A DNA stretch of 64,000 nucleotides from the human T2T-CHM13v2.0 reference genome, Homo sapiens: assembly GCF_009914755.1 (NCBI RefSeq), contig NC_060930.1; one strand, written 5' to 3'. Every line of letters starts with the position of its first letter. Position 1 is the stretch's first letter. Below are positions 645 to 2,453 of the stretch, one piece after another. The notes beneath the pieces were generated by a model. The model saw nothing but the letters and a program-made list of their open reading frames with translations, did no database searches and had not been told where the DNA came from. Made by a program: the position numbers and the translations under genes.

Positions 645-957
645 TCTCTGGGAGGAGGGACAGAAGGGACTTGATCGGGAGGACAGAGGCCCATCCTCTG
701 CTTCCTCCCGAAAAGGCTGCAGAACAGCCTAAAGCCAGGGGGTGGGTCTTTCAGGCCCAGAAAGGGGAGTGTCTCTCTGCCAAGGACCAGGGCAACAGTC
801 CAAAACAGAGACACACAGCCCAGCCCAGGCCTGAGTGGTGGCTGGAGGGTATGGAGGTGTGAGAAGAGACCCCCATAGTCAGAGAGAAGATTCAGAAGCA
901 GTTTCTGGAATGGACTGGGATCCCACCACTGGGGCCGTCCCAAATCTCCCTTAGCCA
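645..957 (+). repeat. Arm A of 313-bp inverted repeat (non-TE sequence)
   Basis: Reverse complement of 2141-2453 with 3 mismatches (arm A positions 676, 797, 866) by manual alignment. Confidence 0.97.
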
Positions 958-1782
958 AAGTTTGGAGCCCAGCAGCCTGGGCTGCAATCTTGCTAAGTGA
1001 TGTGAGCACCTTATTTAATCCCTGTGCCTCTGTCTCCTCTGTGATGATACTAGTGTAAATTTCACAGCATACTTCTGAGAATTAAATGAACGGATTCACA
1101 TTAGTGCTCAGAACAGTGCCTAGTATATAGTGAGCAGCTGACATCGGCTATTATGATTTCCTAAACCAATGTGAATTGGGTTTTTGTTACTGGCAACTGA
1201 AATGGTCCTGGTTATTAATAATTCTCTCTTCCCAGGCTGATCAGCCAAGAAGCACCTGGTTTCACTACTTCTTTTTCTTCTGGTTCAGAAACAGAAGCAG
1301 AAATCCCCTTTAGATTTTCACCGAGTCTTTTGTCCTTCAATGGTAACTTTTACAGAGGGCGGTAAAACAACGCAATGGGAATTCCACTCAAGCAGAAACA
1401 ACTGCAGAAAGCCTGGGTTGGGGCTTTCTGGGACTTCTATTAGGTGAGAATGTCCCAGGCCAGCTCTCCCCTACCCCTCCCAACCTGGGGTGGTTCTAGG
1501 AGGGTGCTGGGGGTCAGGCAGGCCTGGGTGGGAATCCTGGCACTTCTGACTGGCTGTGGGACCCCATGTAAACATACAATCTTATAGAGCCTCAGTTTTC
1601 TAATCTATAAAATGGGACTAATAATAATAATAGCTGCTCCATGAGATTTTTCATGACATTGAAGTTAATCTGTATAAAGCTTTCGTCACTGGCACATACT
1701 GAAGTTCTCCATAGATGCTGTGGTTGCTAAATCATCCTGGTAAGAGACTCCTCTAGTACGTGCTTTAGAAAGCAGCTCTTCT

Positions 1783-2079
1783 GGATAGGCGTGGTGGCTC
1801 ACGCCTGTAATCCCAGCACTTTGGGAGTCCGAAGTAGGCAGATCACTTGAGCTCAGGAGTTCGAGACTAGCCTGGCCAACATGGTGAAACCCTGTCTCTA
1901 CTAAAAATACAAAAAGTTTAGCCAGGTGTGGTGGCGTGTGCCTGTAGTCCCAGCTACTCTAGAGGCTGAGGCAGGAGAATCACTTGAACCCAGGAGGTGG
2001 AGGTTGCAGTGAGCTGAGATCCTGCCACTGCACTCCAGCCTGGGCGATAGAGCGAGACTCCTTCTCAAAAAAAAAAAAA
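1783..2079 (+). mobile_element. AluS, full length
   Basis: Dimeric Alu with poly-A; degenerate TSD agaaagcagctcttct / agaagagcagcttttct. Confidence 0.95.
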
Positions 2080-2140
2080 GGGAGAAGAGCAGCTTTTCTA
2101 ATTGCTACCTGGGCTGAATGTGAGCTTCAGTTCCTCAAAC

Positions 2141-2453
2141 TGGCTAAGGGAGATTTGGGACGGCCCCAGTGGTGGGATCCCAGTCCATTCCAGAAACTGC
2201 TTCTGAATCTTCTCTCTGACTATGGGGGTCTTTTCTCACACCTCCATACCCTCCAGCCACCACTCAGGCCTGGGCTGGGCTGTGTGTCTCTGTTTTGGAC
2301 CGTTGCCCTGGTCCTTGGCAGAGAGACACTCCCCTTTCTGGGCCTGAAAGACCCACCCCCTGGCTTTAGGCTGTTCTGCAGCCTTTTCGGGAGGAAGCAG
2401 AGGATGGGCCTCTGTCCTCCCAATCAAGTCCCTTCTGTCCCTCCTCCCAGAGA
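2141..2453 (-). repeat. Arm B of 313-bp inverted repeat
   Basis: Reverse complement of 645-957; also explains the shared peptide in ORFs 398..1009(-) and 1984..2688(+). Confidence 0.97.

What the first reader, a model, noticed from the sequence alone, without database searches (positions are those of the whole stretch)
645..2453. Near-perfect 313-bp inverted repeat of unique DNA flanking a 1.18-kb spacer: candidate invertible cassette
Seen: 645-957 and 2141-2453 are reverse complements with only 3 substitutions (~99%, two at CpG sites). The arms are not a recognisable TE. The spacer is 958-2140 (1,183 bp). Inward of the core there is a weaker, gapped continuation (attgc..cc.ggctg...ctc.aaac). 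Established: short, highly identical inverted repeats mediate recurrent NAHR inversions and are homogenised by gene conversion. Inference: this is a substrate for a polymorphic or recurrent inversion. A near-identical core with a decayed edge may mean an older IR kept young by arm-to-arm conversion rather than a very recent duplication.
Basis: partly seen in the sequence, partly recalled or inferred. Interest (0 to 1): 0.8.

Follow-up and report, generated by a model that had tools for sequence, protein, structure and literature searches.

The report
Small young inverted duplication, human 6p21
A real 313-base stretch of single-copy human DNA is present twice in opposite orientation about 1.2 kb apart, most likely left by one old local duplication, and there is no sign so far that the piece between the copies flips in people.

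Summary
The inverted repeat is real. Arms 645-957 and 2141-2453 are reverse complements at 310 of 313 positions. All three differences are transitions, two at CpG sites. The spacer is 1,183 bp. The arm has exactly two copies in the whole T2T-CHM13 assembly. It has no target-site duplication and no Rfam or Pfam signal.

The "decayed inner continuation" is mostly chance. Only 6 nt after a 2-bp indel still match. Beyond that, flank alignments score like shuffles. The left inner flank is an old SINE copy that the right inner flank lacks. Sharp edges favour one duplication event over an old repeat kept young by conversion. Divergence puts the arms' last common ancestor roughly 5-10 Myr ago (95% range 1-28, recalled rates).

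The architecture matches known small inverted-repeat-flanked human inversions, such as HsInv0098. This locus is absent from the 612-region catalogue and from the HGSVC3 tables. Perfect-identity tracts are at most 120 bp.

Verdict: an ordinary, uncatalogued small inverted duplication and a weak NAHR substrate. Low interest.

The parts
645..957 (+). Left arm of the inverted repeat (313 bp, 57.8% GC, CpG obs/exp 0.12)
   Evidence: One of only two copies in the assembly. The hub-supplied RefSeq enhancer lies inside it.
2141..2453 (-). Right arm, reverse complement of the left arm, 310 of 313 identical
   Evidence: 99%, E = 6.6e-155.
958..2140 (.). Spacer, 1,183 bp. It is not palindromic and is single-copy apart from SINE and Alu insertions. 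The hub lists RefSeq enhancer calls at 1197-1406 and 1547-1726.
676..676 (+). Arm difference 1: CG (left) vs TG (right arm, 2422), a CpG transition
797..797 (+). Arm difference 2: CA (left) vs CG (right arm, 2301), a CpG transition
866..866 (+). Arm difference 3: G (left) vs A (right arm, 2232), a non-CpG transition
958..964 (+). Inner edge. Two extra A's in the left copy are followed by 6 matching nt (959-964 vs 2141-2136). This is either the true end of the duplicated segment with a later 2-bp slip, or junction microhomology.
957..1134 (+). Old SINE copy 1 (MIR-like; the name is recalled, the family was defined here de novo). It starts at the inner edge of the left arm.
   Evidence: Profile built from 29 own-genome loci plus the window. 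Hit covers profile positions 35-244, E = 7.3e-15, 45.6 bits.
1501..1720 (+). Old SINE copy 2 of the same family
   Evidence: Aligned 1501-1651, envelope to 1700, E = 2.8e-22. The earlier, wider profile aligned to 1719.
1784..2083 (+). Dimeric Alu with an A-tail inside the spacer, flanked by an imperfect target-site duplication
   Evidence: Rfam SRP matches at 1784-1900 and 1921-2068. Flanking direct repeat containing AGCAGCT.

Best explanation
This is a small inverted duplication that falls below the size threshold for a segmental duplication. About 313-320 bp of single-copy intergenic DNA was copied once, in reverse orientation, about 1.2 kb from its source (about 0.87 kb before the Alu inserted). 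The cause was a one-off non-homologous or replication-based rearrangement, such as a template switch or break repair. The event happened in the hominoid lineage a few million to about 25 million years ago. Since then each arm has collected ordinary germline substitutions. Today it is a passive structural feature. In principle it is a substrate for intrachromosomal NAHR that would flip the 1,183-bp spacer, but it is a poor one and no such inversion is known. Shown: the repeat, its two-copy status, its sharp edges, the non-homology of its flanks, the absence of transposon hallmarks, and its absence from the inversion catalogues searched. Inferred: the single-event origin, the age, and the low recombination propensity.
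For: Arms are 310 of 313 identical, and identity falls to chance level within 10 bp or less at both ends. The inner flanks are not homologous: the left one is a SINE copy (E = 7.3e-15), while the right-hand constructs give no SINE hit even at E <= 100. There are exactly two copies of the arm in 3.1 Gb, and the outer flanks and spacer are single-copy. No exact flanking direct repeat longer than 4 bp surrounds either arm, and none of 4 bp or more surrounds the unit, whereas the Alu used as positive control shows one. The differences are 3 transitions, 2 of them at the 4 CpG positions present in either arm. One CpG was lost in each arm, as expected for independent decay. K = 0.0096 gives 4.8-9.6 Myr (95% range 1-28) at recalled rates of 1.0 and 0.5e-9 per site per year. 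No entry exists in the 612-region IR-inversion catalogue within +/-100 kb, nor in the HGSVC3 tables.
Against: I could not examine any other human haplotype or any ape genome. Absence of polymorphism therefore rests on catalogues whose sensitivity to small events is imperfect. [quoted passage not shown] Which arm is the parent could not be decided: reconstructed junctions score 45.6-46.5 bits alike. The 5-6 nt match at the inner edge sits 2 bp out of register, so no clean microhomology junction supports a template switch. The age depends on 3 substitutions and on recalled mutation rates. A recent conversion event would give the same identity.
Confidence: 0.6

Rival explanations
1. One reading: the repeat drives a polymorphic or recurrent NAHR inversion of the 1.18-kb spacer in present-day humans.
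For: The architecture matches validated polymorphic inversions in Table S1 of PMC13629690: HsInv0098 (IRs 297/297 bp, inverted segment 1,077 bp), HsInv0045 (256/257, 940), HsInv0031 (285/249, 644) and HsInv0147 (140/140, 1,550). Arm identity of 99% is high. Small or low-frequency inversions are the ones catalogues miss.
Against: The locus is not among the 612 candidate regions, and no chr6 3738 (T2T) or 3756 (GRCh38) coordinate appears in the held HGSVC3 tables. The base rate for uncalled inverted SD pairs is 6 of 319. Perfect tracts are only 31, 120, 68 and 91 bp. The 2019 study credited NAHR only to IRs of 654 bp or more. Look-alike candidates HsInv0021 (314/301 bp, 1,454 bp) and HsInv0049 (304/300, 735) were not polymorphic.
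Confidence: 0.12
2. The repeat is an old, originally longer inverted repeat whose core is kept about 99% identical by arm-to-arm gene conversion.
For: Conversion between inverted arms is well established for large palindromes and inversion breakpoints (abstracts of PMC8600007 and PMC8327919 in the listing; passages of PMC3961182). A 313-bp core fits typical conversion tract lengths of a few hundred bp.
Against: Its only stated support, the decayed edge, is at chance level. The inner flanks differ in kind: SINE on the left, no SINE on the right. An old, longer repeat would have kept this ancient SINE on both sides. Both edges are sharp. One CpG has decayed in each arm with no tract-like pattern.
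Confidence: 0.08
3. The repeat is the footprint of a past inversion, not its cause. Under a staggered break at one end of the spacer plus fill-in, the segment was inverted and 313 bp were duplicated at the same time. On this reading the spacer is already the derived orientation and is fixed.
For: The outcome (inverted duplication exactly flanking a segment, sharp edges, no TSD) is what the staggered-break model predicts (model recalled from the Drosophila inversion literature, not read here). Inversions with duplications or indels at their breakpoints made in one complex event are reported for human non-homologous inversions.
Against: No positive evidence was found. No repeat element is visibly split between a spacer end and the opposite outer flank (one search tested the SINE only). 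Both SINE copies and both Alus lie on the same strand inside and outside the spacer, which is uninformative.
Confidence: 0.15
4. One arm is an assembly artefact.
For: None specific. Fold-back artefacts do occur in long-read data (general knowledge).
Against: The arms differ at 3 sites with a germline-like spectrum and are separated by 1.18 kb of ordinary unique sequence containing an Alu with its own TSD. Artefactual fold-backs would be identical and adjacent.
Confidence: 0.02
5. The unit is functional as RNA or as regulatory DNA. Either it is transcribed into a long hairpin (a 313-bp near-perfect dsRNA stem), or it is a lineage-specific duplication of an enhancer element.
For: Folded as RNA, 311 of 313 left-arm bases pair with the right arm (MFE -1110.9 kcal/mol). 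RefSeq enhancer calls lie in the left arm and the spacer (hub annotation). A minority of mammalian inverted duplicates are expressed (7.8% in human, PMC5398296 abstract).
Against: No gene or transcript is annotated (hub). There is no Rfam family in the arms. The spacer exceeds the 1,000-nt limit beyond which that study considered hairpins unlikely. CpG obs/exp of 0.12 indicates ordinary methylated, unconstrained DNA. Enhancers work in either orientation, so flipping would not obviously matter.
Confidence: 0.04

Closest known systems
Small IR-flanked human inversions of the InvFEST/HsInv series (e.g. HsInv0098, HsInv0045, HsInv0031, HsInv0147; Table S1 of PMC13629690)
   Same: Inverted arms of 140-300 bp flank segments of 0.6-1.6 kb. 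The size class and layout are the same.
   Different: In the rows read, those arms are typed SINE, LINE, LTR or TEs, and both orientations have been seen. Here the arms are single-copy DNA at 99% identity and only one orientation is known. The catalogue's non-TE 'IR' type in those rows (HsInv0062, 668 bp; HsInv0064, 520 bp) was not polymorphic.
Segmental duplications in inverted orientation that mediate recurrent inversions
   Same: High-identity inverted paralogous sequence within one chromosome, with NAHR as the proposed mechanism.
   Different: SDs are at least 1 kb long by definition (recalled). Most recurrent inversions (23 of 32) have inverted repeats of at least 10 kbp, and repeat length is the main driver of recurrence. 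This repeat is 313 bp.
Large sex-chromosome palindromes maintained by arm-to-arm gene conversion
   Same: Two near-identical inverted arms around a unique spacer (abstracts).
   Different: Those arms are orders of magnitude longer, gene-bearing and conserved between species. Here there is no gene, no evidence of conversion, and the arms are short.
Genome-wide 'inverted duplicates' (PMC5398296)
   Same: The same formal object. 4,315,271 were found in human with arms of 10-10,000 nt.
   Different: The 80th percentile of arm length there is 36 nt and the spacer limit is 1,000 nt. This one is far longer, near-perfect and just outside that spacer limit, so it lies in the upper tail of a very common class.

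Membership tests
IR-mediated (NAHR) polymorphic inversion | Two inverted, highly identical repeats flank the segment | tested here: met
   310 of 313 identical, 1,183-bp spacer.
IR-mediated (NAHR) polymorphic inversion | Both orientations of the segment observed in the population | tested here: not met
   No record in the 612-region catalogue, the HGSVC3 tables, the supplements of PMC13721702 or full-text coordinate searches. The haplotypes themselves could not be inspected here, so this means 'not documented', not 'absent'.
IR-mediated (NAHR) polymorphic inversion | Homology long enough for NAHR | tested here: inconclusive
   The longest perfect tract is 120 bp. The smallest NAHR IR in PMC6748972 is 654 bp, but PMC13629690 lists validated inversions with breakpoint IRs down to 140 bp.
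Segmental duplication | Length of at least 1 kb at 90% identity or more (definition recalled) | tested here: not met
   313-320 bp at 99%.
DNA transposon / MITE with terminal inverted repeats | Target-site duplication flanking the unit | tested here: not met
   No exact flanking direct repeat of 4 bp or more around the unit with +/-6 bp slack. The Alu control gave 7 bp.
DNA transposon / MITE with terminal inverted repeats | Multiple dispersed copies in the genome | tested here: not met
   Only the two arms match in 3.1 Gb. The spacer is single-copy apart from a SINE core.
Inverted SINE (Alu/MIR) pair | Arms derive from a SINE | tested here: not met
   Rfam SRP/Alu matches lie only at 1784-2068 and 2597-2750. 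The de novo SINE profile hits 957-1134 and 1501-1651, not the arms.
Conversion-maintained palindrome | Arms more alike within a species than orthologous arms are between species | not testable with these tools
Conversion-maintained palindrome | Identity declining gradually toward or beyond the arm edges (older homology outside the converted core) | tested here: not met
   Flank alignments are indistinguishable from shuffles. The inner flanks differ in kind.
Expressed hairpin-forming inverted duplicate | Spacer of 1,000 nt or less, and transcription | tested here: not met
   The spacer is 1,183 nt, against the limit used in PMC5398296. Transcription is not testable here, and the hub annotates no gene.

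The most novel reading that the evidence does not exclude
The repeat does flip its enhancer-bearing 1.18-kb spacer, at low frequency or recurrently, below the sensitivity of current catalogues. That would make it an NAHR inversion driven by a non-TE repeat of only 313 bp with perfect tracts of 120 bp or less. It would push down the homology thought necessary for germline NAHR in humans, possibly with arm-to-arm conversion keeping the arms alike across apes.
Probability: 0.08. Interest if true: 0.5.

Novelty: new member of a known kind. Interest (0 to 1): 0.2.

Why it matters
If the spacer were found in both orientations, the locus would be a clean, TE-free test case for the lower homology limit of NAHR and for conversion between very short arms. 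It would also sit next to annotated regulatory elements. As it stands, it is one more small inverted duplication in intergenic DNA. Its main practical consequence is ambiguous short-read mapping over 313 bp. That may explain why only one of two 99%-identical arms carries an enhancer annotation.

Tried and rejected
(1) Extension of homology inward and outward: rejected as chance apart from 6 nt.

(2) Deciding the parental arm. I built a SINE profile de novo from 29 own-genome loci plus the rest of the window. I then scored in-script reconstructions of four candidate ancestral junctions. All left-side constructs gave 45.6-46.5 bits starting at the junction, and the right-side constructs gave nothing. 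The test was uninformative.

(3) Transposon reading: no TSD and no other copies.

(4) Coding reading. One frame is open across the whole arm, and stop-free stretches of 227 and 241 codons span each arm with its flanks. They run through an Alu, have no Pfam match at E <= 1, and are expected now and then at 58% GC.

(5) RNA family reading. Rfam at E <= 1 gives only Alu-derived hits and one chance-level hit overlapping the right arm (19.9 bits against a threshold of 38).

(6) Catalogue look-ups.
- PMC6748972 supplements: 12 of 18 files searched, with chr6 only at 31.0 Mb.
- PMC13629690 Supplemental_Tables.xlsx: 21 of 33 '375' hits and all 17 '376' hits were shown. Every shown hit in the candidate-region sheet (Table S1) ran through to chr19 rows and none was at this locus. 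The 12 unshown hits were not read.
- PMC13721702: 2 files, none.
- PMC12350169 file 2: all 3 '3756' and 6 '3738' hits were irrelevant. The file was 'cut when stored', though hits came from sheets 14 to 58. File 1 was unreadable.
- PMC12229492: its tables list gene-intersecting inversions only, so the check is uninformative for an intergenic site. 2 of 7 '3756' hits were seen.

(7) The Porubsky et al. call set itself could not be read. The PMC id I recalled is not held and bioRxiv supplements are closed. It was checked only indirectly, through its merge into PMC13629690. [quoted passage not shown]

(9) No Dfam/RepeatMasker library, no GRCh38, no other human haplotype and no primate genome was available.

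Full report
**Observation**

The window is T2T-CHM13 chr6:37,386,001-37,450,000 (hub; confirmed). The repeat finder reports one outstanding inverted pair, 636-957 / 2141-2462, 322 nt at 98%, with 1,183 nt between the arms. In the register p+q=3098, the stretch 645-957 / 2141-2453 has mismatches only at 676, 797 and 866, so 310 of 313 positions match.
- Position 676 is CG on the left against TG on the right.
- Position 797 is CA on the left against CG on the right.
- Position 866 is G against A outside a CpG.

So all three differences are transitions, two of them at CpG sites, and one CpG has been lost in each arm.

The arm is 57.8% GC with CpG obs/exp 0.12. Only four CpG positions exist in either arm.

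**Is the repeat more than chance, and is the DNA unique?**

A search of the whole 3.1-Gb assembly with the left arm returns exactly two places, the arm itself and its partner (99%, E = 6.6e-155). The spacer without its Alu (958-1783) matches elsewhere only through a short dispersed-repeat core: 32 short hits of 35-112 nt besides itself. The outer flanks 345-644 and 2454-2596 match only themselves. Within the 64-kb window there are 64 inverted pairs of at least 100 nt. Of the 25 longest shown, all but this one are 75-91% identical; from their lengths (~130-270 nt) and their overlap with the masked repeat stretches I read them as Alu-Alu pairs, which no call named as such.

**The edges**

Gapped alignment shows that after two extra A's in the left copy, six further bases match (959-964 against 2141-2136). 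Beyond that there is nothing.
- The best local alignment of 200 bp of inner flanks scores 9.0 against a shuffle mean of 9.73 +/- 1.58 (366 of 500 shuffles reach it).
- Restricted to the non-Alu 57 bp on the right, it scores 8.5 against 6.87 +/- 1.28 (63 of 500).
- The outer flanks score 11.0 against 11.15 +/- 1.79 (246 of 500).

Independent evidence comes from repeat content. I took 29 genomic loci that share the dispersed-repeat core of the spacer. From them I built a profile by iterated nhmmer and MAFFT and trimmed it to 262 positions. I recognise the family as MIR-like, but that name is recalled and not given by any tool. The profile finds two same-strand copies in the spacer:
- 957-1134 (profile positions 35-244, E = 7.3e-15), which begins at the inner edge of the left arm;
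- 1501-1651 (E = 2.8e-22, extending to about 1720).

It finds nothing in or next to the right arm, even with filters off at E <= 100. An ancient SINE on one inner flank and not on the other means the duplicated segment never included it. The repeat was never appreciably longer on its inner side. So the edges are sharp, and the argument for an old repeat kept young by conversion loses its only support.

**What the unit is not**

- Not a transposon. No exact flanking direct repeat of 4 bp or more surrounds the unit and none longer than 4 bp surrounds either arm, whereas the spacer's Alu, used as a control, shows its target-site duplication. There are no other copies in the genome.
- Not a SINE pair.
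- Not a known RNA. Rfam at E <= 1 gives only Alu-derived hits (SRP, mir-1268, mir-3135) plus one chance-level hit overlapping the right arm.
- Not coding. One frame is open through the arm, and stop-free stretches of 227 and 241 codons span arm plus flanks. They run into an Alu and have no Pfam match at E <= 1.
- Unlikely to be an assembly artefact. The arms differ at three sites in a germline-like pattern and are separated by ordinary unique DNA carrying an Alu with its own target-site duplication.

**Origin and age**

The simplest reading is one inverted duplication of 313-320 bp. Which arm is the source could not be settled. Deleting either arm in silico, or joining spacer ends to the opposite outer flank, leaves the SINE alignment starting at the junction with 45.6-46.5 bits in every left-side construct.

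The five-to-six-base match at the inner edge lies two bases out of register. It is therefore either the true end of the copied segment followed by a 2-bp slip in an A-run, or imperfect junction microhomology.

With K = 3/313 = 0.0096 (Poisson 95% range 0.002-0.028) and recalled rates of 1.0 and 0.5e-9 per site per year, the arms last shared an ancestor about 4.8 or 9.6 Myr ago. The outer bounds are 1 and 28 Myr. That is compatible with a human-specific, African-ape or older hominoid event. It equally dates a last conversion, if there was one.

**Does the spacer flip?**

The architecture is that of known small human inversions. Part 1 of Table S1 of PMC13629690 (70 of 612 rows read) lists these as polymorphic:

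| Inversion | IR sizes (bp) | Inverted segment (bp) |
|---|---|---|
| HsInv0098 | 297/297 | 1,077 |
| HsInv0045 | 256/257 | 940 |
| HsInv0031 | 285/249 | 644 |
| HsInv0147 | 140/140 | 1,550 |
| HsInv0193 | 418/418 | 618 |

In the same rows, look-alikes HsInv0021 (314/301; 1,454), HsInv0049 (304/300; 735) and the non-TE 'IR'-type HsInv0062 and HsInv0064 were not polymorphic.

That catalogue merges 1,528 calls from five long-read, Strand-seq and optical-map studies of 195 people with paired-end predictions and inverted SD pairs. It was genotyped in 54 people (sections 4 and 7). I searched its tables for positions beginning 3755, 3756, 3757 (my hg38 estimate is about chr6:37,561,600-37,563,430, from recalled gene coordinates), 3752, 3753, 3738, and then for all of 375 and 376. 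No chromosome 6 row appeared.

[quoted passage not shown] It holds no chr6 coordinate or variant ID beginning 3738 or 3756. The caveat is that the file was cut when stored and I did not view the inversion sheets themselves. No full text in the library holds these coordinates.

Other indicators also point to a weak substrate.
- Only 6 of 319 previously uncalled inverted SD pairs of 1-50 kb were polymorphic in 54 people.
- Repeat length is the main driver of recurrence, and most recurrent inversions have repeats of at least 10 kbp (Porubsky et al. preprint, passages).
- The 2019 study attributes NAHR only to repeats of 654 bp to 24.2 kb.
- Here the uninterrupted identity tracts are 31, 120, 68 and 91 bp. 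As I recall it, that is below the usual estimates of the minimal efficient processing segment for mammalian homologous recombination; this was not checked here.

Against this, small and rare inversions are exactly what catalogues miss. I put about 0.12 on a detectable polymorphism.

**Other readings**

A staggered-break inversion that created the duplication while inverting the spacer would give the same picture. It cannot be excluded without outgroups, and I put it at about 0.15.

As RNA the unit would fold into a 313-bp stem (311 of 313 arm bases paired). However, no transcript is annotated. The spacer also exceeds the 1,000-nt limit that a genome-wide study of 4.3 million human inverted duplicates used for plausible hairpins (PMC5398296, passages).

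The hub lists RefSeq enhancer calls in the left arm (707-876) and the spacer (1197-1406, 1547-1726). Enhancers act in either orientation, so a flip would have no obvious consequence.

**Verdict**

The thing is a small, fairly young inverted duplication of single-copy intergenic DNA. It is an uncatalogued member of a very common class and, at best, a weak NAHR substrate. The decisive data are spacer orientation across human haplotypes and arm presence and phylogeny across apes. Interest is low.

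Noticed in passing
window 957-1134 and 1501-1720: Two same-strand copies of an ancient SINE (MIR-like, name recalled) lie in the spacer. The first begins within a base or two of the left arm's inner edge, so the duplication breakpoint coincides with a SINE boundary.
   Followed up: yes
window 947-1000: A local imperfect palindrome (about 45 nt, 75.6%) straddles the left arm's inner junction. 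It includes a 7-bp stem AGCCCAG/CTGGGCT.
   Followed up: partly
window 707-876 vs 2222-2391: The hub lists an enhancer on the left arm only, although the right arm is 99% identical. This is probably an effect of multi-mapping reads rather than biology.
   Followed up: no
window 1784-2083 and 2597-2765: A dimeric Alu with a 13-A tail and an imperfect ~16-bp target-site duplication lies inside the spacer. A single Alu-like monomer lies about 140 bp beyond the right arm. Both are on the + strand. The sub-threshold Rfam mir-1268 and mir-3135 hits are parts of these Alus.
   Followed up: partly
window 398-1081 (-) and 1963-2688 (+): Stop-free stretches of 227 and 241 codons run through each arm in the same arm-relative frame. 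They have no Pfam match and continue into Alu sequence, so they were judged to be chance in GC-rich DNA.
   Followed up: yes
window 751-834: There is weak internal self-complementarity inside the arm (about 62-63% over 84 nt, E = 0.001-0.008 in a window-only BLAST). It is probably not meaningful.
   Followed up: no
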